A DNA stretch of 38,014 bases, from the UHGV virus genome UHGV-0042156, one strand, 5' to 3'. A model generated the notes under the pieces. The model saw nothing but the letters and a program-made list of their open reading frames with translations, made no database searches and was not told the origin of the DNA. Each line of letters begins with the position of its first letter. Positions within the stretch are counted from its first letter, which is position 1. Made by a program: the position numbers and the translations under genes. This document shows, piece after piece, positions 1 to 38,014 of this stretch. The DNA is from a virus.

Positions 1-22
1 TTATCAATTTGTTGCAACGAAC

Positions 23-52
23 AGGTCACTATCAGTCAAAATAAAATCATTA
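23..52. promoter_or_regulatory. attP P-prime arm, three tandem Int arm-type sites (aggtcactat / cagtcaaaat / aaaatcatta)
   Basis: Direct repeats of the lambda arm-type consensus C/AAGTCACTAT immediately 3' of int stop; matches lambda attP P-prime arm as recalled. Core would lie left of the window. Confidence 0.5.
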
Positions 53-1120
53 TTTGATTTCAATTTTGTCCCACTCCCTGCCTCTGTCATCACGATACTG
101 TGATGCCATGGTGTCCGACTTATGCCCGAGAAGATGTTGAGCAAACTTATCGCTTATCTGCTTCTCATAGAGTCTTGCAGACAAACTGCGCAACTCGTGA
201 AAGGTAGGCGGATCCCCTTCGAAGGAAAGACCTGATGCTTTTCGTGCGCGCATAAAATACCTTGATACTGTGCCGGATGAAAGCGGTTCACGACGAGTAG
301 ATGCAATTATGGTTTCTCCGCCAAGAATCTCTTTGCATTTATCAAGTGTTTCCTTCATTGATATCCCGAGAGCATCAACATGCAATGTTGTAGGGATGGC
401 AATTTTTACGCCTGTTTTGCTTTGCTCGACATAAAGATATCCATCTACGATATCAGACCATTTCATTTCGCATAAATCCCCAACTCGCTGCCCGGTAACA
501 ACAGCCAGTTCCATTGCAAGTCTGAGCCAACATGGTGATGATTCTGCTGCTTGATAAATTTTCAGGTATTCGTCAGCCGTAAGTCTTGATCTCCTTACCT
601 CTGATTTTGCTGCGCGAGTGGCAGCGACCGGGTTTGTTGTTATATGGCCTTCAGCTATTGCCTCTCGGAATGCATCGCTCAGTGTTGATCTGATTAACTT
701 GGCTGACGCCGCTTTGCCCTCGTCTATGTATCCATTGAGCATTGCCGCAATTTCTTTTGTGGTGATGTTTTCAAGTGGAGCATCAGGCAGACCCCTCCTT
801 ATTGCTTTAATTTTGCTCATGTAATTTATGAGTGTCTTCTGCTTGATTCCTCTGCTGGCGAGGATTTTTTCGTAGCGATCAAGCCATGAATGTAACGTAA
901 CAGAATTATCACTGTTGATTCTTGCTGTCAGAGGCTTGTGTTTGTGTCCTGAAAATAACTCAATGTTTGCCTGTATTGCTTCAGTAATTGCTATCCTCCT
1001 GTCTCTGCCTAATCCGAACTCTTTACCCGTCCTTGGGTCCCTGTAGCAGTAATATCCATTGTTTCTTATATAAAGGTTAGGGGGTAAATCCCGGCGCTCA
1101 TGACTTCGCCTTCTTCCCAT
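50..1120 (-). CDS. int: Tyrosine integrase, lambda Int type
   Basis: 356-aa ORF; N-terminal arm-binding domain (MGRRRSHERRDLPPNLYIRNNGYY), C-terminal catalytic motifs (HELRSLSARLY, HLLGHKSDTMASQY); colinear with lambda Int. Confidence 0.97.
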   Translation of the reverse strand: MGRRRSHERRDLPPNLYIRNNGYYCYRDPRTGKEFGLGRDRRIAITEAIQANIELFSGHKHKPLTARINSDNSVTLHSWLDRYEKILASRGIKQKTLINYMSKIKAIRRGLPDAPLENITTKEIAAMLNGYIDEGKAASAKLIRSTLSDAFREAIAEGHITTNPVAATRAAKSEVRRSRLTADEYLKIYQAAESSPCWLRLAMELAVVTGQRVGDLCEMKWSDIVDGYLYVEQSKTGVKIAIPTTLHVDALGISMKETLDKCKEILGGETIIASTRREPLSSGTVSRYFMRARKASGLSFEGDPPTFHELRSLSARLYEKQISDKFAQHLLGHKSDTMASQYRDDRGREWDKIEIK

Positions 1121-1316
1121 TTCTGATCCTCTTCAAAAGGCTACCTGTTATTGGTCGATTTAAGTCAACCTTTACCGCTGATTCGTGGAACAGATACTCT
1201 CTTCCATCTTTAACCGGAGGAGGGAATATCCTGCACTCGCGTACCCATCGACGAACTGTTTCAAGGCTTCTTGGGCGCCGCTGGCGTGCGTTCCACTCCT
1301 GAAGTGTTAAGTACAT
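1098..1316 (-). CDS. xis: Excisionase
   Basis: 72-aa ORF MYLTLQEWNARQRRPRSLETVRRWVRE..., overlaps int start by 23 nt as in lambda. Confidence 0.9.
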   Translation of the reverse strand: MYLTLQEWNARQRRPRSLETVRRWVRECRIFPPPVKDGREYLFHESAVKVDLNRPITGSLLKRIRNGKKAKS

Positions 1317-1340
1317 CGCAAAGTCTCCGCAATTACACGC

Positions 1341-1366
1341 AATAAAAAACCGCCATCAGGCGGCTT
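1341..1366 (-). terminator. Rho-independent terminator between small ORF and xis
   Basis: Minus-strand hairpin GCCGCCTGATGGCGG followed by TTTTTTATT. Confidence 0.55.
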
Positions 1367-1523
1367 GGTGTTCTTTCAGTTCTTCAATTCGAATATTGGT
1401 TCCGTCTGCATGTGCTATCTGCGCCCATATCATCCAGTGGTCATAGCAGTCGTTGATGTTCTCTGCTTCGATAACTCTGTTGAATGGTTCTCCATTCCAT
1501 TCACCTGTGACTCGGAAGTGCAT
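1359..1523 (-). CDS. Small hypothetical protein (54 aa) adjacent to xis
   Basis: Manual translation MHFRVTGEWNGEPFNRVIEAENINDCYDHWMIWAQIAHADGTNIRIEELKEHQAA; not in ORF track (below 60 aa); bracketed by two terminators. Confidence 0.5.
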
Positions 1524-1533
1524 TTATCATCTC

Positions 1534-1561
1534 CATAAAACAAAACTCGCCGTAGCGAGTT
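1534..1561 (-). terminator. Rho-independent terminator
   Basis: Minus-strand hairpin AACTCGCTACGGCGAGTT followed by TTGTTTTAT. Confidence 0.45.
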
Positions 1562-1710
1562 CAGATAAAAGAAATCCCCGCGAGTGCGAGGATTGTTAGT
1601 TGCGCTCTGCTGCTGCCTTAGCCATTACCATATCCACCCAATTTCACCAGACATGATTCTCGCAATCACTATCATCACCAAAGTGATAATCACAACTTTA
1701 ACTGGCGGCA

Positions 1711-2535
1711 TCATTCACCATCCTGCTCCGGCGGTTCTGGCAGCGGCATCCAGTGGGGTACTTTCGATGCCGGCTCTTCCCCATCGTCAGTAACTGCCCA
1801 CCATTTGTTTCTCGACCAATCGTAATACCCTTCGAAGGTATCGCACTCAGTCCAGCCGTAAGACTTACCCCAACACCAAACATACTGTTTATCGTTCGGC
1901 ATTCGCTCACTACAGCTTATCCAACCATCCGGAGTTACCGGATAGTTGCCACCCTGAACAGTAGGCATATCCGGACCTTTGCGAATCGCCCTGGCAAGAT
2001 CGATTGGGTCGTCGTACAACCAGTCACCTGTTTGCGGATTATTTGCTTCTGCCAATTGTGCAGCCCACTCCAGGCCGTCTTTGTGTCCTTGCAGATAGTC
2101 CAGCGGTAACTCATCACTATTACTTACAGGTTCGGCCTGAAGCATGGCGGCGCGATAGGCGTTCCAGCCGACAGCTTTTCCGTGTTCAAACGCGCTGTCA
2201 AAGTCATCATCAATTTCCATCGCAGCGGGCACAGATACCGGCGCTGGCGGGGCGGTGTAGAGCGGCATTACCTCAATATTGAAGATATCCCCCTCGCTTG
2301 GACACGCCTCTGCGCTACCGTAAACCCAAGGGTGAACGACTCCGTTACGCTTGTTGATTAATCTGTGCGCCCACGCCACAGGCTCCGCTTCGAGCGATGC
2401 CAGCGCGATACGCGCATTATTAATCAGGAGGCTATCAGCAGGAGATAAAACAACATGAGCGTTACCCTCCGCATCAATTTCAGAATTCGTAATTTTTCTG
2501 AACAGCTTTGCCAGTTCTCTGGTAATAGTGCTCAT
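1711..2535 (-). CDS. Phage protein with Trp-rich C-terminal domain (DUF551-like)
   Basis: 274-aa ORF; C-terminal W/C-rich segment (WISCSERMPNDKQYVWCW...HWMPLPEPP); start overlaps upstream stop (ATGA). Confidence 0.8.
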   Translation of the reverse strand: MSTITRELAKLFRKITNSEIDAEGNAHVVLSPADSLLINNARIALASLEAEPVAWAHRLINKRNGVVHPWVYGSAEACPSEGDIFNIEVMPLYTAPPAPVSVPAAMEIDDDFDSAFEHGKAVGWNAYRAAMLQAEPVSNSDELPLDYLQGHKDGLEWAAQLAEANNPQTGDWLYDDPIDLARAIRKGPDMPTVQGGNYPVTPDGWISCSERMPNDKQYVWCWGKSYGWTECDTFEGYYDWSRNKWWAVTDDGEEPASKVPHWMPLPEPPEQDGE

Positions 2536-2810
2536 GGGCGAATCTCCGTCCTGCCACCAAGTAAGCGGATTGCCACTCGTTCCCGGAAGGTAAGCGGTCG
2601 ATGGTGTCCGCGGGCATTAACAATTTCAGGCTTTCCATTAGGCGGATAATTGACCCTGACCGATTGACCATCTAGCGCGTGAGAAGCCTCGAGTAGTGCT
2701 GACTTTAAGTGCGCAGGGCACTCTTTCTGCACCCGCTCGCCGTCTGAAATGACACCTGCAATCCCCTGAAGCATGCTGGCTAAATTGCTGAGATAATTTT
2801 TCACATTCAC
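2532..2810 (-). CDS. Hypothetical early protein
   Basis: 92-aa ORF translationally coupled to neighbours in leftward operon. Confidence 0.6.
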   Translation of the reverse strand: MNVKNYLSNLASMLQGIAGVISDGERVQKECPAHLKSALLEASHALDGQSVRVNYPPNGKPEIVNARGHHRPLTFRERVAIRLLGGRTEIRP

Positions 2811-3151
2811 TCTCCTTTACCGGTGCCATAGGCAGATAAGCACTCTTCAAATCCAGCCTGATTATCCGTTTGACCTAAACTGAAGCCATGCTGAAGACCA
2901 TGACGAAATGCGCTATCTTGCAATTTATCTGCGCTATCGAGCTTCGCTTCCAGTTCAGCGATTCGCTTCTCTGCGGTTTCCAACTCATCCAGCAGCGCCA
3001 CTGAGCGCAGAGCCAATTTCGCAAGCATGTTTGTATCCTTCAAGCTCATCAGCCAATGCCCAGGATTGCTTTTGCAATACTCCATATCAGCTAATTTATT
3101 GAGCCATTCAATTTTTTCTTGATTTAACGCCTGTTTATCGATGTTGCTCAT
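2807..3151 (-). CDS. Hypothetical early protein (coiled-coil)
   Basis: 114-aa ORF, 4-nt overlaps with both neighbours. Confidence 0.65.
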   Translation of the reverse strand: MSNIDKQALNQEKIEWLNKLADMEYCKSNPGHWLMSLKDTNMLAKLALRSVALLDELETAEKRIAELEAKLDSADKLQDSAFRHGLQHGFSLGQTDNQAGFEECLSAYGTGKGE

Positions 3152-3420
3152 TGGGCGGTTCCTTCGTAACCGATGGCTTCTGCAATTTCAGCAAGTGTCT
3201 CTGCACTTTCACCCACTGGCTCATTCATCCAGTCGAAGGAAACAAGCTTACCGCCTTCGATAACGCCGATGTTGAAATCATCACTACCTTGTGTTTTCAG
3301 ACCATGCTTGATTGCCTTATCGCGCTTATCGAAGTCAACGCCGTCTGTCGTGTATTCAACTCCATGGCCTTTCTCGTTGCACCACCAGTACTGCTGAATA
3401 ACGATGTATGATTTTCTCAT
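3148..3420 (-). CDS. Hypothetical early protein
   Basis: 90-aa ORF in operon context. Confidence 0.65.
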   Translation of the reverse strand: MRKSYIVIQQYWWCNEKGHGVEYTTDGVDFDKRDKAIKHGLKTQGSDDFNIGVIEGGKLVSFDWMNEPVGESAETLAEIAEAIGYEGTAQ

Positions 3421-4082
3421 AGCGCGGATCCTTTGCGAATTTGCTCCCTGAACAAGCGGGCTGAGACGATGATGTCTCTGATGCGTACTGATTTTTCGTC
3501 GAACTGCTCACCACCGTTTTTAATATGCGCATCCAGTTCTGCACTGTGATGCTGGATGAAAGCGTTGAGGCACTGCGCCCGCACTTCAGCCATGAAAGCG
3601 TCGGTGGCTGGGGTTTTGTTATCTGACTCCAGCCACTGGTTGTAGTAATAATCGAACATGCCAGTAGGATAACCACATCCGCTGTGCACGTGGTCTTTCA
3701 TAGCAGAACCACACATACAGTAGTCATTGTCAGTATTACTAATGATGTCGATAAGTTGCTGTGTCCGTTGCTTCAACATCGCATTCTCCGCCGCCAGCGC
3801 CGAAAACTTCTCGTGTGCCAACTTAACAGCTGCATCAGCCTGCTTAATTGACTCAGTCGCTTTCTGGTGGTCTTCGGCCAGCCCTGCTAAATCAGCCTCC
3901 AGTTCGGCTAGGCGTTCATTTAATGCATCTCGTTCATCCAGTAGAGCCAGCACAACCTGAGGTGTTACTTTCATACGAAATGCCAGCAATTTTTGAGGCG
4001 TTGCTACTGTTTCAATTGCTACTGCTGCCTCACGCAGTACCTGATAGTCAATCTTGCTCACTGGTTGCCTCCTTTGCGCCAC
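3417..4082 (-). CDS. Ead/Ea22-like coiled-coil protein
   Basis: 221-aa ORF with long coiled-coil ([20 protein letters not shown]...) and Cys/His cluster; typical of the lambdoid early-left region. Confidence 0.65.
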
Positions 4083-4225
4083 ATCGCATTCAGATATTTG
4101 TTGTCATTAACAGAACCGAAACTCTTTCTCTTAAGTAATTCCTCTCTCGATGGCATTGGCTTTACGCGTTGGCGAATAATCATTTCTGCCGGAAGAATGC
4201 CGGGATTGTATGCAAGTCCTCTCAT
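4058..4225 (-). CDS. Small hypothetical protein (start uncertain; alternatives 4243, 4258)
   Basis: In-frame ATGs; chosen start has GAGGA 9 nt upstream. Confidence 0.4.
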
Positions 4226-4235
4226 GGTAAATTCC

Positions 4236-4532
4236 TCAGTCATTACTGATAGCGCCATAGCGTGAGCGGTAATTACGCAGGCGCGGGTCGATATATTCAG
4301 GGAAGTGGGTATATGTGGCTTTGCGGAATGGTCGGATTGATGTCTGGTAAATTCGCTCGCGTTCTTCTTTCTCTGCAAGCCATATACAGTGGCGAAATTC
4401 CTTTTCCTCTTTCGTTTCCTGCGGTAGAGACATTATTCGATCGTAGTTTTTCCTGAATTTATCCAGCACCTCCGATACGGAATTGCCGGAACAGCGGCGC
4501 GCGTCATCCGCACCATACAGAGGCACTGGCAT
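4236..4532 (-). CDS. Hypothetical early protein
   Basis: 98-aa ORF. Confidence 0.6.
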
Positions 4533-6145: not shown

Positions 6146-6170
6146 ATGAAAAAGCCGCACTCAGGCGGCT
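6146..6170 (-). terminator. Rho-independent terminator after orphan gene
   Basis: Minus-strand hairpin AGCCGCCTGAGTGCGGCT followed by TTTTTC; overlaps the stop codon. Confidence 0.6.
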
Positions 6171-7143
6171 ATTTGATGTCTTGCGTGTAGCCTGTACCGC
6201 CACAGCATGAGCATTGCTCTATTGGCGCGTGAATGGTATCCATAAGCGTCGTAAGGAAGTTATCAATCATTTCCTTTAGCTCCCATTCGTTATTGGCTTT
6301 GAACCCTTTAATCGCCGTATAACCTTTGTAATTTTCTTGGTCATGTGTCATTTGGAAAATTTCAATTTCCTTCACCGTGTCAGTCTTAAAGTGCAACTTT
6401 GCTCTTTGCTTCTTGGTTCTGGCAAAAATATCCTGATATGAATATGTGTGAGGCTTAAGGAGCGGTATTATTTTTTTAACGGTAAAGCAAAATGCGTAAT
6501 CACTTGTTATTCTAGCCAGTTTGTTGTCGATGTTATCTTTTACGTGCTGGCGTACAATGTCATACATTTCTTTTGATGAAATTTCACAAGGGCTGTTAGC
6601 CCGCAAAGGCTCAGGAATTATGATGCAGTCAACAAGAGAGTGTTTTACGTTTATGTTTTTTACAACGTACCTCTCCTCCCGGAACTCAACCTGCCTAATT
6701 GCAGAGTAATTAAATTCTGGTGCGTCACGAAAATTTTCAACCTCACATACTAATGTGAATTCAACGTCAACTGGAGAGGTGTAATCAGGTGCAGTATCGT
6801 ATTTGTATTCATAAAGAGAGCCTCTGATATCCTCGTCCACTGCGTCACGCTCATTGTAACTAAGTGTCAAAGGGTATTTTTTACTCTCAAGTTCAGCATC
6901 TTTAAGCTCGTAGCGAACATTAATTCTTTCACCAGAGATAATTCTCTCAACCTTTTCAGGGTAATGTTCAATTTCAAACCAGTTTTTGTGAAAGCTGGCT
7001 TTGGGTTTAACTCCGTCAAATAGGAGATCAGCAATTTTAGATTGATGGTACTGGTAGTGATAACCGTCCTTTGCTGTGCAATCAGTGATAAAACATTTAC
7101 CAGCGTCGGTTTTAATAATGCTTATTTGCAATGCGTTACTCAT
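6169..7143 (-). CDS. AT-rich orphan protein of unknown function (324 aa), candidate accessory/defence gene
   Basis: Long ORF; preferred start MSNALQ at 7143 with GGAGGAG SD (ORF-track start 7239 lacks a usable SD); visibly lower GC than flanks; C-terminal CSCCGGTGY; no motif I recognise. Confidence 0.75.
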   Translation of the reverse strand: MSNALQISIIKTDAGKCFITDCTAKDGYHYQYHQSKIADLLFDGVKPKASFHKNWFEIEHYPEKVERIISGERINVRYELKDAELESKKYPLTLSYNERDAVDEDIRGSLYEYKYDTAPDYTSPVDVEFTLVCEVENFRDAPEFNYSAIRQVEFREERYVVKNINVKHSLVDCIIIPEPLRANSPCEISSKEMYDIVRQHVKDNIDNKLARITSDYAFCFTVKKIIPLLKPHTYSYQDIFARTKKQRAKLHFKTDTVKEIEIFQMTHDQENYKGYTAIKGFKANNEWELKEMIDNFLTTLMDTIHAPIEQCSCCGGTGYTQDIK

Positions 7144-7154: not shown

Positions 7155-7182
7155 GCAAAAAGAATGCCCTCACATCGGAGGG
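7155..7182 (-). terminator. Terminator-like hairpin upstream of orphan gene
   Basis: Minus-strand hairpin CCCTCCGATGTGAGGG followed by CATTCTTTTTGCC. Confidence 0.5.
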
Positions 7183-7278
7183 CAAAGAAGATTTCCAATA
7201 ATCAGAACAAGTCGGCTCCTGTTTAGTTACGAGCGACATTGCTCCGTGTATTCACTCGTTGGAATGAATACACAGTGC

Positions 7279-8762: not shown

Positions 8763-8810
8763 TGCCAATCTGTTCCGTTTGGCTACCAGCTTCCTGCTGA
8801 TGGCTTAAAG

Positions 8811-8893
8811 ATAACTTAGGTTATAGGTGTGGTCAATAACCTAATTTATATTTTGTGGTAAATAAGTTATAAGTGATGGATAACAAAGGTATT
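8811..8893. promoter_or_regulatory. OL operator cluster / pL region
   Basis: Three 14-bp sites ATAAC-N4-GTTAT: ATAACTTAGGTTAT (8811), ATAACCTAATTTAT (8836), ATAACAAAGGTATT (8880); same consensus as OR. Confidence 0.5.
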
Positions 8894-9027
8894 TTATTTT
8901 TGTAAATGTTGCTGATTGATTGGTGTTTGAGGGCTTGCGTGCGGGGTGAAGGTGTTACCTTTGGCTTGATGCTTGTCTATGATGAGGATGGTTGATTGGG
9001 TGGTGAACGGCAGGGAAAGAAAAACCC

Positions 9028-9117
9028 NNNNNNNNNNNNNNNNNNNNNNNNNNNNNNNNNNNNNNNNNNNNNNNNNNNNNNNNNNNNNNNNNNNNNNNNN
9101 NNNNNNNNNNNNNNNNN
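9028..9117. other. Run of 90 N (assembly gap or masked sequence)
   Basis: Literal n characters; flanked on both sides by ccc. Confidence 1.
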
Positions 9118-9142
9118 CCCGGCGCTGAGGCCGGGTGTTTTT
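9118..9142. terminator. Terminator hairpin (lambda tImm-like) abutting the N-run
   Basis: CCCGGC-GCTGAG-GCCGGG then TGTTTTT on plus strand; on minus strand the same hairpin follows the stop of the 9141..9437 gene, with its T-tract (aaagaaaaa at 9017..9025) on the other side of the gap. Confidence 0.5.
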
Positions 9143-9437
9143 AGTCCTTTCTATTGCTTAGCATTTCGTCGATTTCTAAGTCAATACGATATTGATCTAT
9201 TGCTTTTCTCTCGTTTGGGGTTGGTATTTTATACTGTTCAATTAGATCTGTTGTGTATTTTATTTCATCTAATGTGATTTTTATATCAGAGAGAATCTCT
9301 TTTATATCAATTAGATGCTCTTCTTCTTTTGCGCGATTAGAGCTATGTTCAATCATTTGAGATAGCTTTTTGCTAATGCTTAGCAAAACAAAAAGAATGA
9401 TGACCAAAACAACAACAAAAACTATCAGAAATTCCAT
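9141..9437 (-). CDS. Small single-pass membrane protein co-transcribed with cI (candidate exclusion/abortive-infection protein)
   Basis: 98-aa ORF, N-terminal hydrophobic helix (EFLIVFVVVLVIILFVLLSI) then charged coiled-coil; GGAGGG SD 3 nt before ATG; very AT-rich; occupies the rexAB slot. Confidence 0.7.
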   Translation of the reverse strand: MEFLIVFVVVLVIILFVLLSISKKLSQMIEHSSNRAKEEEHLIDIKEILSDIKITLDEIKYTTDLIEQYKIPTPNERKAIDQYRIDLEIDEMLSNRKD

Positions 9438-9477
9438 TATCCCTCCGCACTTCCGTAAGTCTTCTTCTGATTATCGG

Positions 9478-10185
9478 TTACCAACTATGAGACGACCAGA
9501 ATACTCTGCCAATAATCCTTACGGTTTCATGAAATTCATCTCTATCCATTACTTCATCCGGGTACTCTTCGCGATTTATTGATCTGATTATCACCGATGT
9601 AGGGGTGGCGATTAATGTTTTTACTCGTAACAAATCAGACTGGCAAATAGCGTAGGTTTTACCATCTCTGATTGTGGTATCTTGCGTGTTAACACCAACA
9701 ACATCGCCATCGTGAAGCGTTGGTTCCATGCTTTGCCCTACAACCCTAACTAGCTTGGCTGATCTTTCAGATACTCCCATCTTTTTCAGATAGTGCTTTC
9801 TGAAAACCAAAGAGAACTCCGATGATTCCTCTAGCTCGCAGCTACCGCTTCCAGCTGAAAGCGAAACGTTAAGAAGAGGCAACGCAACAAACTCGTCATC
9901 GTTTCTTTTAATGTCTTCCCATACCACAGCTTTTAAAGATGACTCACGGACATTGGATGGTTCTTCATGTGCACCATCCCTCATTTCACCAATACCAGAA
10001 CTAAGCCATTCAGGGCGCACTTTTAAAGCATTGGCTAATTCAACCATCTTGCGAGATCCGTTTGTTTTACCGGACGACATCTTCTGTATGGCTGGCTGAG
10101 ATATTCCAACCATGTCAGCAAGCTGTGATTGTGATACCCCAGCTGAGCTCATGGCTGCATTTAGTCTTTCTGCGAATGTTTTCAT
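9478..10185 (-). CDS. cI: CI-type repressor (HTH plus S24 LexA-like autopeptidase domain)
   Basis: 235-aa ORF; N-terminal HTH (SQSQLADMVGISQPAIQKM); C-terminal Ser/Lys dyad context (VGQSMEPTL ... RVK); divergent from cro across an operator region. Confidence 0.9.
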   Translation of the reverse strand: MKTFAERLNAAMSSAGVSQSQLADMVGISQPAIQKMSSGKTNGSRKMVELANALKVRPEWLSSGIGEMRDGAHEEPSNVRESSLKAVVWEDIKRNDDEFVALPLLNVSLSAGSGSCELEESSEFSLVFRKHYLKKMGVSERSAKLVRVVGQSMEPTLHDGDVVGVNTQDTTIRDGKTYAICQSDLLRVKTLIATPTSVIIRSINREEYPDEVMDRDEFHETVRIIGRVFWSSHSW

Positions 10186-10196
10186 ACCACAAATCT

Positions 10197-10272
10197 ATAA
10201 CTACGGTTATCCAAAGTAAAATAACAAAGGTTATTGCTATTTTTTATAACTTGAGTTATCTTTGGTTATAAT
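10197..10272. promoter_or_regulatory. OR operator cluster with pR -10
   Basis: Three ATAAC-N4-GTTAT sites at 10197, 10221, 10246 (24-25 bp spacing); TATAAT at 10267..10272 upstream of cro. Confidence 0.55.
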
Positions 10273-10295
10273 TAATGACCACAAGAGGTATGCTC

Positions 10296-10520
10296 ATGAA
10301 TTTAGTAATTCAACGAGCCTTGAAAATTGTCGGTAGCCAAAAGCGCCTTGCCGACAAGTGTGGTGTAACGCAGCCAGCAGTACACAAATGGCTGAAAGGC
10401 GGATTGGTCTCTCCAGAGAAAGTTACCGCCATCGTTAACGCCACTGGAGGGCAGATCAAGGCTTACGAAATTCGCCCCGATTTGCCACACCTGTTTCCAA
10501 AACCGAATCAGGCAGCATAA
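10296..10520 (+). CDS. cro: Cro-like HTH regulator
   Basis: 74-aa ORF from MNLVIQRALKIVGSQKRLADKCGVTQPAVHKW; AGAGG 7 nt upstream; ORF-track start 10275 would lie upstream of the predicted transcript start. Confidence 0.75.
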   Translation: MNLVIQRALKIVGSQKRLADKCGVTQPAVHKWLKGGLVSPEKVTAIVNATGGQIKAYEIRPDLPHLFPKPNQAA

Positions 10521-10942: not shown

Positions 10943-11347
10943 ATGCCAGGACAAACCAAGCAAGTAAACACCGGCATAAAGGCCGGTGACAAGTTCGAAA
11001 CCGTATATCCATTTATCTTCGTATGCACAGATTATCAGTCTTATGACGGCAACGTGCATACCGATGAGCGCTGGATTGGCGGTTGTCACAAAAATTATGA
11101 GCCAGCCGATTGTGGTTATGGTGATCAGTGTTTTTACACCGCTGATGCTGAAGGAAAGAGAATTCTTGAGGTTCTGGCAGTGGTGGAAATGCCAGGCAAC
11201 TGGCAGCGCAGAATCATTTATTCGTGCCACCTCATAGAGCCTGAAGGCAAGGAGAGGAAAGGAAGGAAGGCTTACACAGTCACCGAATCAAGGTTTTTAA
11301 AAATGTCTACTGGTTACTTCGCTGATTACGAAGTAGAGGAGGCTTAA
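10943..11347 (+). CDS. Hypothetical Cys-rich protein between cII and O (134 aa)
   Basis: AGGAG SD 5 nt before ATG at 10943; ORF-track start 10736 overlaps cII out of frame and is rejected. Confidence 0.7.
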
Positions 11348-14334: not shown

Positions 14335-14363
14335 ATGACCATCTACATCACTGAGCTAATAAC

Positions 14364-14395
14364 AGGCCTGCTGGTAATCGCAGGCCTTTTTATTT
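14364..14395 (+). terminator. Rho-independent terminator (tR2-like) before nin region
   Basis: AGGCCTGC-TGGTAATC-GCAGGCCT followed by TTTTTATTT. Confidence 0.65.
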
Positions 14396-14411
14396 GGGGG
14401 AGAGGGAAGTC

Positions 14412-14828
14412 ATGAAAAAGCTAACCTTTGAAATTCGATCTCCAGCACATCAGCAAAACGCTATTCACGCAGTACAGCAAATCCTTCCAGACCCAACCAA
14501 GCCAATCGTAGTAACCATTCAGGAGCGCAACCGCAGCATTCGGCAAAATGCACGCCTTCACGCGATGCTATCTGAAATAAGTAAGAAGGCTACATATCAT
14601 GGAAAAGTAAGAAATATTGAGTTTTGGAAGGGGTTATTCGTTTCTGGTTGGCAGATTGCAACCAACCAGCACCCTGAGATTATATCAGGGTTAGAAGGTG
14701 AGCTAATAAACATCAGAGAGAGTACGGCGACTCTATCTGTAAAAAAAATATCCGAAATAATGGACTACATAGAAGCATATTGTGCCATGAACTCAATTCA
14801 TCTTAGCGAATGGAGGAATTATGATTGA
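14412..14828 (+). CDS. ninB: NinB recombination protein (3' part divergent)
   Basis: MKKLTFEIRSPAHQQNAIHAVQQILPDPTKPIVVTIQERNRS matches lambda NinB as recalled, then continues in AT-rich divergent sequence to a new C-terminus. Confidence 0.85.
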   Translation: MKKLTFEIRSPAHQQNAIHAVQQILPDPTKPIVVTIQERNRSIRQNARLHAMLSEISKKATYHGKVRNIEFWKGLFVSGWQIATNQHPEIISGLEGELINIRESTATLSVKKISEIMDYIEAYCAMNSIHLSEWRNYD

Positions 14829-18531: not shown

Positions 18532-18538
18532 CCATAAT
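18509..18538 (+). promoter_or_regulatory. Candidate late promoter pR-prime (TTGACA-N18-CATAAT) overlapping Q 3' end
   Basis: TTGACA at 18509..18514, CATAAT at 18533..18538, just upstream of the terminator. Confidence 0.4.
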
Positions 18539-18547
18539 TAGAAGGTA

Positions 18548-18594
18548 AGCTGCCGTTAGTGACTCTTAAGTTGCAACGGTGGCTTTTTTATTTG
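18548..18594 (+). terminator. tR-prime-like terminator
   Basis: 10-bp stem AGCTGCCGTT/AACGGTGGCT (two G-U pairs), 17-nt loop, then TTTTTTATTTG; downstream leader resumes lambda-like sequence. Confidence 0.5.
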
Positions 18595-19029
18595 CACAAC
18601 AGGTAAGAGCATTGAACCCGCAGACCTCGCGGAATTGGTGAAAGGTGCCGCGCAGTGCTCTTATCGTTGTGGTGAATGCACAGGCTGATGTGTAAGGGCA
18701 AGAATCTTTCGCTGGATTCGGTGTGGCCACGTAGCCCGCTGTAGGCAGTTGCAGCAAACCGGAGATCAGCACCGGTCGCCACAATCCAAACTGAGCCGTA
18801 GCCACTGGCTATCATGAATTCATCGGTGATAGTTACGCTGCGGACTTCTACACATGACCTTCGTGAAAGCGGGTAGCAAGAGGTTGCGCTAACAACCTCC
18901 TGCCGTTTTGCCCGTGCATATCGGTCACGAACAAATCTGATTACTAAACACAGTAGCCTGGATTTGTTCTATCAGTAATCGACCTTATTCCTAATTAAAT
19001 AGAGCAAATCCCCTTATTGGGGGTAAGAC
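18595..19029 (+). other. Untranslated late-operon leader (lambda-like)
   Basis: No credible coding frame; lambda-like sequence up to S start as recalled. Confidence 0.5.
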
Positions 19030-19353
19030 ATGAAGATGCCAGAAAAACATGACCTGTTAGCCGCCATTCTCGCGGCAAAGGAACAAGGCATCGGGGCAAT
19101 CCTTGCGTTTGCAATGGCGTACCTTCGCGGCAGATATAATGGCGGTGCGTTTACAAAAACAGTAATCGACGCAACGATGTGCGCCATTATCGCCTGGTTC
19201 ATTCGTGACCTTCTCGACTTCGCCGGACTAAGTAGCAATCTCGCTTATATAACGAGCGTGTTCATCGGCTACATCGGTACTGACTCGATTGGTTCGCTTA
19301 TCAAACGCTTCGCTGCTAAAAAAGCCGGAGTAGAAGATGGTGGAAATCAATAA
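19030..19353 (+). CDS. S: Holin S (lambda S, dual-start MKM)
   Basis: [34 protein letters not shown]... matches lambda S. Confidence 0.95.
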
Positions 19354-19813
19354 TCAACGTAAGGCGTTCCTCGATATGCTGGCGTGGTCAGAGGGAACTG
19401 ATAACGGACGTCAGAAAACCAGAAATCATGGTTATGACGTCATTGTTGGCGGAGAGCTATTCACTGATTACTCCGATCACCCTCGCAAACTTGTCACGCT
19501 AAACCCCAAACTCAAATCAACAGCCGCCGGGCGCTACCAGCTTCTTTCCCGTTGGTGGGATTCCTATCGTAAGCAGCTTGGCCTGAAAGACTTCTCCCCC
19601 AAAAGCCAGGACGCAGTGGCATTGCAGCAGATTAAAGAACGTGGCGCTTTACCGATGATTGATCGGGGTGATATTCGTCAGGCTATTGATCGTTGCAGCA
19701 ATATTTGGGCTTCATTGCCCGGTGCTGGCTACGGTCAGTATGAACACAAGATCGATAGTCTGATTGCCAAATTCAAAGAAGCTGGCGGGGTGGTTAATGA
19801 AACTTCGCTATAA
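19337..19813 (+). CDS. R: Endolysin R (lytic transglycosylase)
   Basis: [45 protein letters not shown]... matches lambda R. Confidence 0.95.
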
Positions 19814-20265: not shown

Positions 20266-20292
20266 TAGCCTCGTAATAGCGAGGCTTTTTAC
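20266..20292 (+). terminator. Rho-independent terminator after Rz
   Basis: GCCTCG-TAATA-GCGAGGC then TTTTT. Confidence 0.65.
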
Positions 20293-20308
20293 TAACCGAG
20301 GGTAAATA

Positions 20309-27755: not shown

Positions 27756-27761
27756 TTTTGG

Positions 27762-27786
27762 TGGGGCTTCGGCCCCATTTTTATTG
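27762..27786 (+). terminator. Rho-independent terminator after coat gene
   Basis: GGGGC-TTCG-GCCCC then ATTTTTATT. Confidence 0.7.
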
Positions 27787-27796
27787 GGAGAAGACA

Positions 27797-28436: not shown

Positions 28437-28541
28437 ATGCCGATTCAGCAACTTCCGCTTATGAAAGGTGTCGGCAAAGACTTTCGAAACGCCGACTATA
28501 TCGACTATCTGCCAGTGAATATGTTGGCAATTTTGATATAA
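28437..28541 (+). pseudogene. Truncated original 5' end of gene 10 (31 native codons, then stop)
   Basis: [31 protein letters not shown] matches P22 gp10 N-terminus, then runs into ILI-stop at the insertion point. Confidence 0.65.
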
Positions 28542-29202
28542 TAAGTACATGAAAAATCGAAACTTTAAGGAGTAGATATGCTTTCTGAGAATGCTAAAGA
28601 TATACCTGGATTTGAAGGTGTTTATGCCGTAACAGAAGATGGCAGGGTGCATTCTCACTCACGTGTTGTTAAGGCTGCGCATGGCAGCACGCAACTCAGA
28701 AAGGGGCGCTGGTTAAAGCCTAAAATAAATCAGGGAAGGGTGCTTTATAATATCGGAGCAAAATGGACTTTTGCCCATCGAATCGTTGCAATGACATTCC
28801 TGCCAAATCCTGAAAACAAGCCTCAGGTAAATCATATTGATGGCAATCCACTCAATAATAACGTCAATAATCTTGAGTGGTGCACTCAAAGCGAAAACAT
28901 CAAACATGCATACGCCACAGGATTAAAGAAACCAATCAAGTTTTTCGGAACCAAGCACCCAAAACACAAGTTGAGTGATGACGATGTTCTTGCAATCAAG
29001 TCATCAAAAGAAAGCTTGTCAGTAATTGCGGCTAAGTACGGGATATCTAAGACCTGGGCAAGTAGGCTAAAGCGTGATGCTAACTGGGTTCATATAAAGG
29101 TTGATTCCAATGGCAATACAACAACTACCACTAATGAAGGGATTAGGGAAAAGTGCGGTTAATGCTGATTATATAGACCAACTTCCAGTCAATCTTTTAG
29201 CT
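28530..29202 (+). mobile_element. HNH endonuclease cassette inserted in gene 10, carrying a divergent copy of gene-10 codons 1-31
   Basis: 93-bp segment 29110..29202 encodes the same 31 residues as 28437..28529 with different, AT-rich codons; HNH gene lies between the two copies. Confidence 0.55.
28578..29162 (+). CDS. HNH endonuclease (NUMOD4 plus HNH plus C-terminal HTH)
   Basis: IPGFEGVYAVTEDGRVHS, VNHIDGNPLNNNVNNLEWCTQSEN, VIAAKYGISKTWASRLKR; 3' end overlaps restored gene-10 start. Confidence 0.8.
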   Translation: MLSENAKDIPGFEGVYAVTEDGRVHSHSRVVKAAHGSTQLRKGRWLKPKINQGRVLYNIGAKWTFAHRIVAMTFLPNPENKPQVNHIDGNPLNNNVNNLEWCTQSENIKHAYATGLKKPIKFFGTKHPKHKLSDDDVLAIKSSKESLSVIAAKYGISKTWASRLKRDANWVHIKVDSNGNTTTTTNEGIREKCG

Positions 29203-30528
29203 ACGCCCAAGGAGGTGTTGAATTCATCGGGATATCTTCGCTCATTTCCGGGCATTGCCAAACGCTCTGATGTGAACGGCGTATCTCGCGGAGTCGAGTA
29301 CAACATGGCGCAGAATGCTGTTTATCGCGTGTGTGGTGGCAAACTGTACAAAGGAGAAAGTGAAGTCGGTGACGTCGCCGGAAGTGGTCGCGTATCAATG
29401 GCGCATGGTCGGACATCTCAGGCTGTAGGCGTTAATGGTCAACTGGTCGAGTATCGCTATGATGGCACGGTTAAAACCGTCTCAAACTGGCCTACAGACA
29501 GCGGATTCACGCAGTATGAGTTAGGTTCGGTTCGTGACATTACTCGCTTACGTGGGCGTTATGCGTGGTCAAAAGACGGTACTGATTCATGGTTCATCAC
29601 TGACCCTGAAGACGAATCGCATCCTGACCGCTACAGTGCACAATATCGTGCAGAATCGCAGCCGGACGGCATCATCGGCATCGGAACATGGCGAGACTTC
29701 ATCGTCTGCTTTGGTTCATCGACGATTGAATATTTCTCCCTGACTGGTGCAACCACCGTTGGTGCTGCTTTGTATGTCGCACAGCCATCGTTGATGGTGC
29801 AGAAAGGCATTGCAGGAACCTACTGCAAAACGCAGTTTTCTGATTCGTATGCGTTCATCAGCAATCCGGCAACAGGTGCGCCGTCTGTTTACATCATCGG
29901 ATCCGGTCAGGTGTCACCAATCGCCAGCGCGAGCATTGAGAAAATCCTCCGCTCCTACACCGCGGATGAACTGGCTGATGGCGTGATGGAGTCTCTGCGA
30001 TTTGATGCGCATGAACTGCTGATTATCCATCTTCCGCGCCATGTCCTCGTGTACGACGCATCTTCAAGCGCCAATGGTCCGCAATGGTGCGTACTGAAAA
30101 CAGGACTGTATGACGATGTGTACCGCGCTATCGACTTCATTTACGAAGGCAATCAGATAACGTGCGGCGATAAGCTGGAATCCGTGACCGGGAAATTGCA
30201 GTTCGATATCAGCAGCCAGTACGACAAGCAGCAGGAACACCTGCTGTTTACTCCGTTGTTCAAAGCGGATAACGCCAGAGTGTTCGACCTTGAGGTTGAG
30301 TCGTCAACTGGCGTTGCGCAGTATGCTGACCGCCTGTTCCTCTCTGCAACCACTGACGGCATCAATTACGGACGTGAGCAGATGATTGAGCAGAATGAAC
30401 CGTTCGTTTACGACAAACGCGTTTTGTGGAAGCGAGTCGGGCGCATCAGGAAAAATGTCGGCTTCAAATTGCGCGTTATCACGAAGTCACCTGTCACTCT
30501 TTCTGGCTGCCAGATAAGGATTGAGTAA
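29110..30528 (+). CDS. Tail hub protein (P22 gp10-like), restored full-length copy
   Basis: [49 protein letters not shown]... colinear with P22 gp10 (ORF-track start 29101). Confidence 0.85.
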
Positions 30529-35774: not shown

Positions 35775-36059
35775 AAGCTTTCCTACAACAAGTCCGAACA
35801 TTAAGAACGCAAAGTTCAATAAATCTCTGTCCATAAATCCTCCTGTTTACCAAAACTATATCAAACTTTAACGCAATGCTGCGCAACTTAAGTGACTTTC
35901 AGGTTGATAACAGACACTCTTTTTTGCATGATTCCTTTAGACCATCACAATTGATGAAGAATCATGAAAAGAAGAACTCTTCTAAAGTCTTTGCTCGGCC
36001 TGACGTCACTCTTACCAGTTAAGTTTGCAGCATCTCAAAACCTGCAAGGTAAAAGTATA

Positions 36060-37964
36060 ATGTCAGACATTACACCCAATGTTGTAGTGAGTATGCCTTC
36101 GCAACTCTTCACTATGGCTCGTTCTTTTAAAGCCGTAGCTAATGGTAAAATTTATATCGGTAAAATTGACACTGACCCGGTAAATCCTGAAAACCAGATT
36201 CAGGTTTATGTGGAAAATGAAGACGGTTCTCACGTTCCTGTTTCGCAACCAATCATCATTAACGCTGCTGGATATCCGGTATATAACGGACAGATTGCCA
36301 AGTTCGTTACTGTGCAAGGCCATTCCATGGCTGTTTATGATGCGTATGGGGCGCAACAATTCTATTTTCCAAACGTATTGAAGTATGATCCAGATCAATT
36401 AGAAAGCAGGTTGTCGGAAACTAATAGTACAGTAATGATATCTGGAGTAACCGCATCAAAAATAGCAAGTAATGTTATTGCAACAGAATATCTTGAGTCG
36501 CCAAATGTATATGATGTGTTTGTTACGTATGGGCAGTCAAATAGCGCAGGTGAGGCTATTTTATCTGGCGATACGTCAGGCTTTCCTGCCGCTCTGCCGA
36601 AATCACTAATGTATGATTTTAGTGATGGAGCAATAAAGCCAATTATACAGAATGTGGTTAGTTCTTCTGGCGTTGCATCATCTGGACATGCATGGGGGGA
36701 ATTCGAGAATGAATGGTATCGCCTTAGCGGGCGCGGTTCAGTGGAGGTACACTGCGGCCGTGGCGCAACTACCATTGCACAGCTATCAAAAGGGACCACA
36801 TACTACACGCTGTTGGTAAATGCCGTGGCGTCAGCTAAACAGGCAATGATTGCCGCTGGTTTGCCTGTCGGTAAAACGTACGTGATGTACCACCAGGGTG
36901 AGTCGGATATGACGGCAGGGACAACATACAATGCTTATAGAGACAGCTTTATAGCCTTGATAGATGATCTGAAAACCGATATTAATTTTGATTTATTTTG
37001 TAATTTTACCGTTGGTTGCCCGGGGAACCGAACGGAAGAATCATGGGCTGCTATTCAAAATGCGCAAAGGTGGGTTTGTAATAGCAAGACTAACGCTGTG
37101 ACAGTATTTGACGGTTGCCCTTCATTTTTAAAAGGCGATGGCAATATTGGCACTACTGATGGAGGCGTTCACTATACGCAACGCGGTTACAATACAATGG
37201 GGCGAGAAGGTGCCAGAGGATTATGGTCATTAGTTAAAGGTGGGGCAAGCAATAAAACCTCAACCGATTTAGCACAATATTCAAATTTTGCCCCACCGTG
37301 GACAAGGGCGAAATTAGTCGCCGGTACTATTAAATACAGCAATGATAACGCTAAATGGGTTCTTTTATCTAAAGAAGTAAACAGTGAATGGAAAGTTTCC
37401 AATGCCCATAAATTAGTTGTTTCTGCTGATGGGGAATATTTTTCTGTAGAAATTGCAGACAATGCCGAAAACTGGTTTTATGCCGCCGCGGGCGTCGACC
37501 GCGCTACAGCTATAACAGGTGTCAGGTCCTACGCAGAACCTCTTCGTGTGGGAAATGCATTCACATTAAAAATTACTATGTATGCCGACGTTTCTTTCCT
37601 TGTTAATACAAAAACAGGAGTCATTCGTTATGGAAGACCGCCTTCAGGCTCTGGTGTCCCAGAGTGGATTAGAAATAATATCTCTGTTTCTGTGGTGAGT
37701 GCTGGCATCGTGGAAATAACGCATGGCCGCACTGCAACAATGCCATCAGCAACATATTACGCCACTAGTGACGGAACATTATCTGCGGCAAATGTATCTG
37801 TATATGCCGGGTCAACCACAACGACAAGAGTTTATTGTGATAAAGCAAACACTGATAATCCATGGGTGGTTGTTACACTTAGAGATTTACTAATTACTCC
37901 TGCCAACATGCAACATTACGATATTTCAATTAACTTTAACGGAATTTATGCGCCATCCGCATGA
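36060..37964 (+). CDS. Tailspike: P22-type head-binding domain fused to SASA/SGNH-like carbohydrate esterase domain
   Basis: [46 protein letters not shown] matches P22 gp9 head-binding domain; central [14 protein letters not shown] and DGGVHYT motifs resemble sialate-O-acetylesterase-type esterases; ORF-track start 35964 rejected. Confidence 0.85.
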
Positions 37965-38014
37965 TATTTCGATGGTTATGTAATTAATATATTCTGTAGA
38001 ATAACCCCACATTA

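What the first reader, a model, noticed from the sequence alone, without database searches (positions are those of the whole stretch)
1..38014. Lambda/P22 mosaic whose module breakpoints coincide with terminators
int-xis, the late leader and S-R-Rz read as lambda; erf, N and all morphogenesis genes are P22-like; Q is non-lambda. Three visible junctions sit at intrinsic terminators: the tImm-like hairpin at 9118..9142, the tR-prime T-tract at about 18585..18595, and the hairpins flanking 6169..7143. This suggests terminator hairpins act as recombination linkers here.
Basis: partly seen in the sequence, partly recalled or inferred. Interest (0 to 1): 0.4.

Follow-up and report, generated by a model that had tools for sequence, protein, structure and literature searches.

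The report
Ordinary mosaic prophage; some junctions at terminators

Summary
The window is the P22-like prophage of E. coli MS 115-1, sitting at the lambda attachment site. I compared it by BLAST with lambda, P22 and 15 other lambdoid phages. This gave 153 breakpoint clusters, 43 of them seen in at least 4 phages.

Only 5 of those 43 lie within 5 bp of a predicted terminator. Another 19 lie at ordinary gene boundaries and 15 lie inside genes (ninB, R, Rz, gp10, needle, tailspike).

Five of 12 predicted terminators are nevertheless sharp multi-way junctions:
- 1347-1366
- 1573-1594
- 7165-7184
- tR2, 14364-14387
- tR', with its T tract at 18584-18593

- tR' holds.
- The right flank of 6169-7143 holds. 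The left flank holds only against P22, at 77% identity.
- The "tImm" junction is a 90-N scaffold gap; related prophages run straight through it.

The terminator-bearing islands match blocks already annotated as "bsq; boundary sequence" in the Sf6 and CUS-3 GenBank records (Clark 2001 concept). Small conserved genes act as the same kind of island. The enrichment at terminators is real but modest: about 9-fold against a uniform null, about 2.5-fold against an intergenic null.

Verdict: observation partly confirmed, interpretation plausible but already known, low interest.

The parts
1..1598 (-). Lambda-type int, xis and orf55 block, up to the 5' base of hairpin T3
   Evidence: 97.5% identical to lambda 27763-29360. 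int is 98.9% and xis 97.2% identical in amino acids. The prophage lies between ybhC and ybhB-bioA.
1338..1366 (-). Terminator T1: hairpin 1347-1366 plus U tract 1338-1346, between orf55 and xis. Multi-way junction.
   Evidence: Folds at -14.8 kcal/mol. 12 phages begin matching at 1339-1344, with 5 different left flanks. HK97, HK022, mEp506 and 720R6 end at 1347-1353. Corresponds to the P22 annotated aI terminator 23398-23418.
1534..1594 (-). Tandem terminators T2 (1543-1562) and T3 (1573-1594). The junction is at the 5' base of T3.
   Evidence: Folds at -26.3 kcal/mol. 10 phages end at 1593-1598, with about 6 different right flanks. Many Stx phages share only 1560-1598 or 1543-1598.
6169..7143 (-). 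Gad1 (Gabija anti-defence 1) homologue. This is the cargo gene between hairpins T5 (upstream) and T4 (downstream).
   Evidence: Pfam PF25705, E=6.5e-68, full length. PDB 8u7i, E=1.2e-43. No megablast-level match in 50,697 phage records.
6144..6170 (-). Hairpin T4, overlapping the stop codon of the Gad1-like gene
   Evidence: Folds at -10.4 kcal/mol. Only the 77% P22 block 6068-6170 ends here. High-identity blocks end at 6075 or 5955.
7156..7184 (-). Terminator T5, called 'tL2A' by homology in the Sf6 and HK620 records
   Evidence: Folds at -12.3 kcal/mol. 12 of 17 phages begin matching at 7166, with at least 4 different left flanks.
7166..7278 (-). Conserved 113-bp intergenic island, equal to Sf6 'bsq4; boundary sequence'
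   Evidence: Maps to Sf6 24157-24268, where bsq4 is annotated at 24156-24268. 325 phage records match the query window 5900-7400. About 80% of an evenly spaced sample share only 7158-7279.
8810..10519 (.). Immunity module: OL/pL, a 98-aa ORF, cI, OR and cro. Its edges are not at terminators.
   Evidence: No HSP in any of the 17 genomes. Block ends at 8805-8809, 8901-8911, 9476 (cI stop) and 10520-10529 (cro stop).
9028..9117 (.). Run of 90 N, a scaffold gap and not real sequence. CCC is repeated on both sides.
   Evidence: The complete genome reads GAAAAACCCGGCGCTGAGGCCGGGTGTTTTT.
9118..9142 (.). tImm-like bidirectional terminator hairpin. The minus-strand U tract lies at 9016-9024, left of the gap. 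Not a mosaic junction.
   Evidence: Colinear in Stx1a_10051 and 97 E. coli genomes, with no block ends at it.
10969..10988 (-). oop-type terminator. No junction.
14335..14410 (+). ninA/tR2 island: hairpin 14364-14387 and T tract 14388-14397. Equal to Sf6 'bsq6'.
   Evidence: 98-99% identical to lambda 40567- and Sf6 30316-30391. Left ends at 14333-14335 in 9 phages, right after the stop codon of the replication gene. Ends at 14400-14410 in 9 phages. 417 phage records match.
14537..14537 (+). Recurrent junction inside the ninB coding sequence
   Evidence: 13 of 17 phages end here, 125 bp into ninB.
18532..18595 (+). pR'-qut-tR' island: hairpin at about 18547-18585 and T tract 18584-18593. Equal to CUS-3 'bsq4'.
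   Evidence: Maps to CUS-3 25879-25816. Folds at -20.3 kcal/mol. Junctions at 18584, 18589 and 18594.
18780..19788 (+). Late leader plus S and R, lambda-like (95%). The block ends inside R.
   Evidence: 14 phages end at 19782-19788 and 12 restart at 19954, inside Rz.
20267..20295 (+). Terminator T11 after Rz. It lies in a segment with no match in the 17 genomes, and junctions fall 11-16 bp upstream at the Rz stop.
27760..27788 (+). Terminator after the coat gene. No junction.
   Evidence: Six phages are colinear from 23312 (E212 from 21310, JEP4 from 21640) to 28528.
28529..29229 (+). HNH-NUMOD4 endonuclease insertion with a replaced gp10 5' end. Both junctions are inside or at coding sequence.
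   Evidence: 10 phages end at 28528 and 11 restart at 29230. Pfam domains. The duplicated gp10 5' ends are about 70% identical.
36369..36397 (+). Junction inside the tailspike gene, at the end of the head-binding domain
   Evidence: 9 phages end at 36369-36397. P22 matches only the first 113 amino acids.

Best explanation
The window is an ordinary mosaic lambdoid prophage of the P22-like (CUS-3-type) podovirus kind, carrying a lambda-type integrase.

I propose its modules were assembled in two ways.
1. Homologous exchange between co-resident lambdoid phages and prophages, using host RecA or the phage's own Erf-type annealase. The exchange happens within short islands of near-identical sequence that are shared across the whole phage group.
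2. Occasional non-homologous insertions and replacements: cargo genes, homing endonuclease genes, tRNA cassettes. These survive only when they fall at the edge of a functional unit.

Some shared islands are intergenic regulatory blocks that contain an intrinsic terminator:
- 1339-1401
- 1543-1598
- 7166-7278
- ninA/tR2, 14335-14410
- pR'-qut-tR', 18532-18595

Other shared islands are small conserved genes: ninE, ninF, rusA-ninH, S-R and orf80.

Terminators end up at junctions because they are the 3' end of a transcription unit. In four of the five cases the variable DNA starts right after the U tract. That is a spot where new DNA breaks no gene and stays expressed by N/Q read-through.

SHOWN: the positions of the junctions, the islands, how widespread the islands are, and their identity with published boundary sequences.

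INFERRED: the recombination mechanism and the selective filter.
For: - Source and relatives: 100% match to E. coli MS 115-1. Nearest phages are E. coli P22-like phages, not lambda or P22.
- Breakpoint map against 17 genomes. Of 43 recurrent clusters, 19 are at gene boundaries, 15 inside CDS, 5 at terminators and 4 in other intergenic sequence.
- Base-level views show 3-7 different flank contexts joined within 5 bp at T1, T3, T5, tR2 and tR'.
- The islands equal the GenBank 'bsq' features of Sf6 and CUS-3 and annotated terminators of HK620, HK97 and P22.
- Islands of 9 or more of 17 phages include coding ones with no terminator.
- Population level: 325, 417, 89 and 347 phage records match around these islands, many sharing the island alone.
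- Cargo after terminators: the Gad1 gene after T5. tRNA genes follow tR' in Sf6, 720R6, Kapi1 and mEp506 but are absent here. Extra genes follow tR2 in Sf6, 720R6 and Kapi1.
- The phage encodes Erf.
- Literature: boundary sequences versus illegitimate recombination (PMC3029335).
Against: - No experiment here shows that crossovers occur in these islands.
- Hairpin-level enrichment over an intergenic null is only marginal (p about 0.04, post hoc).
- The terminator list is predicted, not measured.
- Only 17 comparison genomes were mapped base by base, and shared ancestry among them inflates the 'number of phages' per breakpoint.
- At T3 the conserved block starts with the hairpin rather than ending with it, so the 'cargo after the U tract' rule is not universal.
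Confidence: 0.75

Rival explanations
1. The terminator hairpins and T tracts are themselves mechanical recombination hot spots. Candidate routes are hairpin or cruciform extrusion, polymerase stalling or template switching, and microhomology between the T tracts of unrelated terminators. Junctions would then form there more often than elsewhere, independent of selection.
For: - Junctions are precise to within 5 bp at five terminators, each with 3-7 flank contexts.
- At tR', lambda and the window have unrelated hairpins but share the T tract, and Sf6 diverges right after it, so the only common point is TTTTTTAT.T.
- Some Stx phages share only the 37-39 bp terminator 1560-1598.
- 8 of 10 terminator-bearing junctions are recurrent breakpoints, against 3 of 16 other long gaps.
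Against: - Five to seven of 12 terminators (oop, coat, tImm, 6153-6170, 8087-8117, and strictly the one after Rz) are not junctions.
- 38 of 43 recurrent junctions are elsewhere, many at overlapping start/stop codons with no hairpin.
- The same pattern is expected from selection alone, because terminators delimit functional units.
- Nothing here measures event rates.
Confidence: 0.12
2. The coincidence is only the general gene-boundary effect. Junctions survive in intergenic DNA, terminators are intergenic, and the overlap carries no further meaning.
For: Redistributing intergenic breakpoints over all 3,206 intergenic bases gives 4.5 expected against 7 observed for all clusters (p=0.17). For recurrent clusters it gives 2.0 against 5 (p=0.04). 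The terminator list and tolerances were set during the analysis.
Against: - Terminator-bearing junctions are recurrent breakpoints about 3-4 times more often than other gaps over 20 bp (8/10 against 3/16, p=0.003). Breakpoint density is 13 against 4 in similar total lengths (p=0.025).
- The junctions sit at the very ends of the hairpin or U tract rather than anywhere in the gap.
- Terminator-only islands exist in many phages.
Confidence: 0.15
3. The element is a simple two-parent hybrid of lambda and P22, as the title suggests, with a few crossovers.
For: Lambda-type int-xis and S-R (95-97.5% nt), and a P22-type gene order with several P22-like genes.
Against: Lambda plus P22 cover only 15% of the window at 90% identity or more, and 23% at 79% or more. 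The 17 phages together cover 80%. The closest relatives are CUS-3, 720R6, Sf101, E212, JEP4 and mEp043. Portal, scaffold and coat have no nucleotide match to P22. There are 153 breakpoint clusters.
Confidence: 0.02

Closest known systems
Boundary sequences ('bsq') of lambdoid phages: Clark et al. 2001, J Mol Biol 311:657 (HK620). Annotated in the Sf6 (NC_005344) and CUS-3 (CP000711) GenBank records. Descends from the linker idea of Susskind & Botstein 1978.
   Same: These are short, highly conserved segments flanked by unrelated or mosaically related DNA, proposed as sites of homologous exchange. Window 7166-7278 corresponds to Sf6 bsq4, which overlaps the annotated terminator 'tL2A'. Window 14335-14410 corresponds to Sf6 bsq6, which overlaps tR2. 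Window 18532-18595 corresponds to CUS-3 bsq4, running from the Q stop to the end of the tR' T tract.
   Different: Nothing substantive. The islands at 1339-1401 and 1543-1598 are not annotated as bsq in the records I read.
Illegitimate recombination plus selection, and 'morons' (Hendrix et al. 1999; Juhala et al. 2000, HK97/HK022)
   Same: Most junctions here lie at gene boundaries with no shared linker, as that model predicts. The Gad1 gene with its own downstream hairpin sits in a slot that is empty in HK97 and HK620, where the terminator is followed directly by cIII. That layout is moron-like.
   Different: A moron is defined with its own promoter, and none was established for the Gad1 cassette. 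15 recurrent junctions lie inside genes.
PeSL cassettes (promoter-early stem-loops) of T4-type phages: Arbiol et al. 2010, PMC2839356; Comeau et al. 2014, PMC4122927
   Same: These are conserved regulatory cassettes containing a functional terminator stem-loop that flank variable genes. Recombination between them was shown to shuffle modules. This is the clearest published case of terminator cassettes acting as recombination linkers.
   Different: It is a different phage group. PeSLs are one repeated motif present many times within a genome, and they include a promoter. Here the terminator islands are unrelated to one another and are shared between genomes, not within one.
P22-like phages (Lederbergvirus), CUS-3 procapsid type
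   Same: Gene order runs from TerS to tailspike. There is 97-98% nucleotide identity to CUS-3, 720R6, Sf101 and Kapi1 (23312-28528) and to E212 and JEP4 (from 21310 and 21640 to 28528), plus a P22-type head-binding domain on the tailspike.
   Different: This prophage has a lambda-type integrase and attachment site, a primase-helicase replication module shared with mEp043, Sf101 and 720R6, an immunity region shared with Stx1a_10051, and three HNH endonuclease genes.

Membership tests
P22-like lambdoid prophage | P22-type late gene order (TerS, TerL, portal, scaffold, coat, gp4, gp10, gp26, gp14, gp7, gp20, gp16, tailspike) with homologous proteins | tested here: met
   tblastn against P22 finds homologues for all except scaffold (28-92% aa). 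Nucleotide identity to CUS-3-type phages is 97-98%. RefSeq annotation.
P22-like lambdoid prophage | Lambdoid early region: int-xis, early-left recombination genes, N, cI-cro-cII, O/P-type replication, nin region, Q, S-R-Rz | tested here: met
   (Q matches Pfam Phage_antitermQ).
Boundary sequence (Clark 2001 sense) | A short segment highly conserved between phages whose adjacent sequences on one or both sides are unrelated | tested here: met
   1339-1401, 1543-1598, 7166-7278, 14335-14410 and 18532-18595, at 95-100% identity with differing flanks.
Boundary sequence (Clark 2001 sense) | Positional identity with segments already annotated as bsq | tested here: met
   Sf6 bsq4 and bsq6, and CUS-3 bsq3, bsq4 and bsq5, map onto the window islands.
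Boundary sequence (Clark 2001 sense) | Actually used as a crossover site | not testable with these tools
   Needs phage crosses. The islands are too short and too similar for informative-site analysis.
Intrinsic (Rho-independent) terminator | GC-rich stem-loop followed by a U tract on the transcribed strand, outside or at the end of a gene | tested here: met
   12 candidates at -10 to -26 kcal/mol, most with z about -2 to -5. Several are annotated as terminators in homologous positions of HK97, HK620, Sf6, P22 and HK106.
Intrinsic (Rho-independent) terminator | Termination activity in vivo or in vitro | not testable with these tools
   Needs Term-seq, RNA-seq or reporter assays.
Moron (Juhala 2000) | An extra gene inserted between two genes that are adjacent in related phages | tested here: met
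   The Gad1-like gene lies between T5 and cIII. In HK97 and HK620 the homologous terminator is followed directly by cIII.
Moron (Juhala 2000) | Own promoter upstream and terminator downstream | tested here: inconclusive
   The downstream hairpin 6153-6170 is present. Only weak 9/12 promoter-like matches were found nearby, no more than in shuffled sequence.
Recombination hot spot intrinsic to hairpins | Junction frequency at hairpins exceeds that of matched non-hairpin intergenic DNA | tested here: inconclusive
   5 observed against 2.0 expected at hairpin level (p about 0.04). 8/10 against 3/16 at gap level (p about 0.003). Five to seven terminators have no junction.
Gad1 anti-Gabija protein (gene 6169-7143) | Full-length sequence match to the family profile and to the solved structure | tested here: met
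   PF25705, E=6.5e-68, profile positions 2-292 of 293. PDB 8u7i, E=1.2e-43. Anti-Gabija activity was not tested.

The most novel reading that the evidence does not exclude
Intrinsic terminators, through their hairpin plus the T tract common to all of them, may be preferred physical sites of microhomology-mediated or structure-induced exchange in lambdoid phages. Under this reading, unrelated terminators can recombine with one another and create new module joints exactly at the U tract. The lambda, phage-21-type and Sf6 arrangements at tR' hint at this. It would be a mechanism beyond homologous exchange in long boundary sequences and beyond selection.
Probability: 0.12. Interest if true: 0.5.

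Novelty: already known. Interest (0 to 1): 0.15.

Why it matters
If terminators really were recombination linkers, they would help explain how temperate phages swap immunity, lysis, integration and anti-defence modules without breaking regulation. They would also point to predictable cargo slots, such as the one that holds a Gad1 anti-Gabija gene here and the one after tR'. But the pattern is the published boundary-sequence picture of lambdoid mosaicism (Clark 2001; Sf6 and CUS-3 annotations). The data here add only a modest quantitative check. The practical lesson is methodological: one 'visible junction' was a run of N in a draft assembly.

Tried and rejected
1. N run as masked or inserted real sequence: rejected. 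The complete MS 115-1 chromosome joins the flanks with a 3-bp overlap, and 97 E. coli genomes are colinear.
2. tImm hairpin as a junction: rejected after searching the phage and E. coli collections. The immunity-module edges are at 8805-8809, 8901-8911, 9476 and 10520-10529.
3. Default blastn scoring blurred block ends, for example 7144 against 7166. I replaced it with +1/-3 scoring and ungapped projections.
4. A uniform null alone overstated the effect (9-fold), so I added an intergenic-only null (2.5-fold) and a gene-junction comparison.
5. oop, coat-gene and post-Rz terminators as junctions: none at the hairpin.
6. A literature search on 'novel joints', terminators and illegitimate recombination gave nothing specific to terminators. 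Clark 2001, Casjens 2004 and King 2007 are not in the searchable library. I relied on their GenBank annotations and on a secondary citation.
7. Naming T5 as lambda tL1 or tL2a from memory: not settled. I use the label given in the Sf6 and HK620 records.


Full report
WHAT THE WINDOW IS

Bases 1-9027 and 9118-38014 match the chromosome of E. coli MS 115-1 (NZ_CP146665.1) with one mismatch each. The region is a complete prophage lying between ybhC and ybhB-bioA, which is the lambda attachment site.

Gene order and RefSeq names show a P22-like podovirus late region, from TerS to tailspike, joined to a lambdoid early region.

The nearest phage records are E. coli P22-like phages and a few siphoviruses: vB_EcoP-720R6, mEp043, Sf101, CUS-3, E212 and JEP4. 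No record covers 80% of either half of the window.

blastn against lambda and P22 gave these lambda matches:
- 1-1598 (int, xis, orf55), 97.5%
- 7166-7278, 98%
- 14335-14537, 98%
- ninE and ninF, 94-96%
- 18584-18615
- 18780-19788 (late leader, S, R), 95%

P22 matches 19 scattered blocks. It has no nucleotide match across portal, scaffold and coat.

Lambda and P22 together cover 15% of the window at 90% identity or more, and 23% at 79% or more. Seventeen lambdoid genomes together cover 80%. So 'lambda/P22 mosaic' is a loose label.

At protein level:
- int, xis, S and R are lambda-type at 94-99%.
- Rz is P22-like (80%, against 49% for lambda).
- Erf is 75% identical to P22.
- The N-like protein is only 32% identical to P22 gp24, but 98% identical in nucleotides to HK620 N.
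- Q has no lambda or P22 hit and is the phage-21 type carried by Sf6.

THE ASSEMBLY GAP

Positions 9028-9117 are 90 N. In the complete genome the two flanks overlap by CCC, giving GAAAAACCCGGCGCTGAGGCCGGGTGTTTTT. This is a good bidirectional terminator for the leftward cI transcript (-13.7 kcal/mol).

It is not a mosaic junction. Stx1a_10051 is 98-99% identical straight across it, and so are 97 E. coli genomes.

The immunity module is bounded instead at four places:
- 8805-8809 (the pL start)
- 8901-8911
- 9476 (the cI stop, in SH2026Stx1-type phages)
- 10520-10529 (the cro stop)

SYSTEMATIC BREAKPOINT MAP

I repaired the gap and ran blastn with +1/-3 scoring against 17 genomes. I discarded ends caused by record termini and clustered the remaining 502 HSP ends into 153 breakpoint clusters.

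I used 12 predicted terminators. Ten came from rule-based filtering of the scan output. The other two were tR', identified by homology to the Sf6 annotation, and oop.

| Class | All clusters (153) | Recurrent, at least 4 phages (43) |
|---|---|---|
| Inside CDS | 86 | 15 |
| Within 15 bp of a gene boundary | 49 | 19 |
| Other intergenic | 11 | 4 |
| Within 5 bp of a terminator | 7 | 5 |

Recurrent junctions inside genes include:
- 14537 in ninB (13 phages)
- 19782-19788 in R (14 phages)
- 19954 in Rz (12 phages)
- 29230 in gp10 (11 phages)
- 30727-30736 in the needle gene
- 20679 in orf80
- 36369-36397 in the tailspike

WHAT DOES HOLD

Five terminators are sharp multi-way junctions.
- T1 (1347-1366, minus strand). 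Twelve phages with five different left flanks start matching at 1339-1344, the far end of the U tract.
- T3 (1573-1594). Ten phages with about six different right flanks stop at 1593-1598.
- T5 (7165-7184). Twelve phages start matching at 7166.
- tR2 (14364-14387). Nine phages start at 14333-14335, right after the stop codon of the replication gene. Nine end or start at 14400-14410, just past the T tract.
- tR'. Ends fall at 18584, 18589 and 18594, inside the T tract at 18584-18593.

An alignment shows lambda and the window have unrelated tR' hairpins but share the T tract and the next 22 bases. Sf6 shares the hairpin and diverges right after the T tract, where it carries tRNA genes. The window has no tRNA genes.

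In the whole phage collection, 325, 417, 89 and 347 records match around these sites. From evenly spaced samples of the rankings:
- About 80% share only 7158-7279.
- About 40% share only the ninA/tR2 block.
- About a third share only 1543-1598 or 1560-1598, which is the terminators themselves.

IS THIS MORE THAN CHANCE?

- Against a uniform null, recurrent breakpoints at terminators are about 9-fold enriched: 5 observed against 0.56 expected, p about 0.0005.
- Against a null that redistributes intergenic breakpoints over intergenic bases, the result is 5 against 2.0, p about 0.04.
- At the level of gene junctions, 8 of 10 junctions with a terminator carry a recurrent breakpoint. Junctions without one do so in 14 of 49 cases, or 3 of 16 when only gaps over 20 bp are counted (Fisher p about 0.004). 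Breakpoint density is 13 against 4 in similar total lengths (p=0.025).

These tests are post hoc, and the phages are not independent. The effect looks real but modest.

Five terminators have no junction: oop, coat, tImm, 6153-6170 and 8087-8117. The one after Rz has junctions 11-16 bp upstream, at the stop codon.

tR' is confirmed.

For the gene 6169-7143, the right-hand hairpin is confirmed. For the left-hand hairpin, only a 77% P22 block (6068-6170) ends there. High-identity blocks end at the cIII start (6075, five phages) or at 5955 (six phages).

The gene itself is a full-length Gad1 (Gabija anti-defence 1) homologue: Pfam E=6.5e-68, PDB 8u7i E=1.2e-43. It has no close nucleotide relative among 50,697 phage records. 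Its slot is empty in HK97 and HK620, and holds ea10 in lambda and gene 33 in Sf6.

COMPARISON WITH WHAT IS KNOWN

The islands are already annotated elsewhere.
- Window 7166-7278 is Sf6 'bsq4; boundary sequence' (24156-24268), which overlaps that record's terminator 'tL2A'.
- Window 14335-14410 is Sf6 'bsq6', which overlaps tR2.
- Window 18532-18595 is CUS-3 'bsq4', running from the Q stop to the end of the tR' T tract.
- Window 18760-19029 is CUS-3 'bsq3'.
- Window 8628-8809 lies in CUS-3 'bsq5'.
- P22 annotates the T1 hairpin as the aI terminator.

The concept is Clark et al. 2001 (HK620), after Susskind and Botstein 1978. [quoted passage not shown] My counts agree with that statement.

In T4-type phages, conserved promoter-terminator cassettes (PeSLs) have been shown to mediate module shuffling (PMC2839356).

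MOST LIKELY MECHANISM

I think modules are exchanged by homologous recombination within any island of near-identity. Terminator-bearing regulatory blocks are one class of island. Small conserved genes (ninE, ninF, rusA-ninH, S-R, orf80) are another.

New joints arise by non-homologous insertion or replacement and persist at the edges of functional units. A terminator is the 3' edge of a unit. In four of the five cases the variable DNA begins right after the U tract.

The junction positions and the islands are shown. The recombination route and the selective filter are inferred. The phage's own Erf and the 37-113 bp island lengths make homologous exchange plausible, on the general knowledge that phage annealases work with a few tens of bases.

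A structure-driven hot spot at hairpins is not excluded, but nothing here requires it.

VERDICT

This is an ordinary mosaic lambdoid prophage, and interest is low.

Noticed in passing
window 9028-9117: A run of 90 N with CCC repeated on both sides. The complete genome of the same strain has no extra bases there, so this is a scaffold gap in a draft assembly, placed exactly inside a terminator.
   Followed up: yes
window 6169-7143 (minus strand): A 324-aa full-length homologue of Gad1, the phage inhibitor of the Gabija defence system (Pfam PF25705 E=6.5e-68; PDB 8u7i E=1.2e-43). It sits between two hairpins in the early-left operon. It has no megablast-level relative in the phage collection, though divergent alleles occupy the same slot in Sf6 (gene 33), mEp043, Sf101 and HF4s.
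   Followed up: partly
window 28437-29229: An HNH+NUMOD4 endonuclease gene (28578-29162) is inserted between gp4 and gp10. It leaves a dead ancestral gp10 5' fragment (28437-28529, 96-99% identical to other phages). It brings a replacement gp10 5' end (29110-29229) only about 70% identical to the fragment. This looks like homing with co-conversion.
   Followed up: partly
window 14821-15423 and 16695-17204: Two more NUMOD4+HNH_3 endonuclease-like genes lie in the nin region. Next to the first, the 3' two-thirds of ninB is replaced: 14538-15392 has no match in the 17 genomes, and 13 phages break at 14537 inside ninB.
   Followed up: partly
window 8342-8613 (minus strand): The N-like gene has a 1-bp deletion relative to HK620 N that changes the last 10 or so residues, giving an 86-aa ORF at 8353-8613. 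RefSeq marks it as frameshifted. CUS-3 N shares only the N-terminal half, with a break at 8422 inside the gene.
   Followed up: partly
window 18594-18790: There are no tRNA genes anywhere in the window. Sf6, HF4s, 720R6, Kapi1 and mEp506 carry tRNA-Asn and tRNA-Thr immediately after the same or equivalent tR'.
   Followed up: yes
window 9141-9437 (minus strand): A 98-aa ORF lies downstream of cI, in the position of lambda rexAB. It has a hydrophobic N-terminus and no significant Pfam match. It is shared with Stx1a_10051 and about 97 E. coli genomes but replaced by other DNA in SH2026Stx1-type phages. It could be a prophage-expressed exclusion gene.
   Followed up: no
window 20257-20526: A segment with no match in the 17 genomes holds the post-Rz hairpin (20267-20286) and a 62-aa ORF (20309-20497). 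It lies between two very recurrent junctions, at 20251-20256 and 20527-20536.
   Followed up: no
window 36398-38014: The tailspike receptor-binding part has no nucleotide match in any of the 17 genomes. Only the N-terminal head-binding domain (36059-36397) is shared.
   Followed up: no
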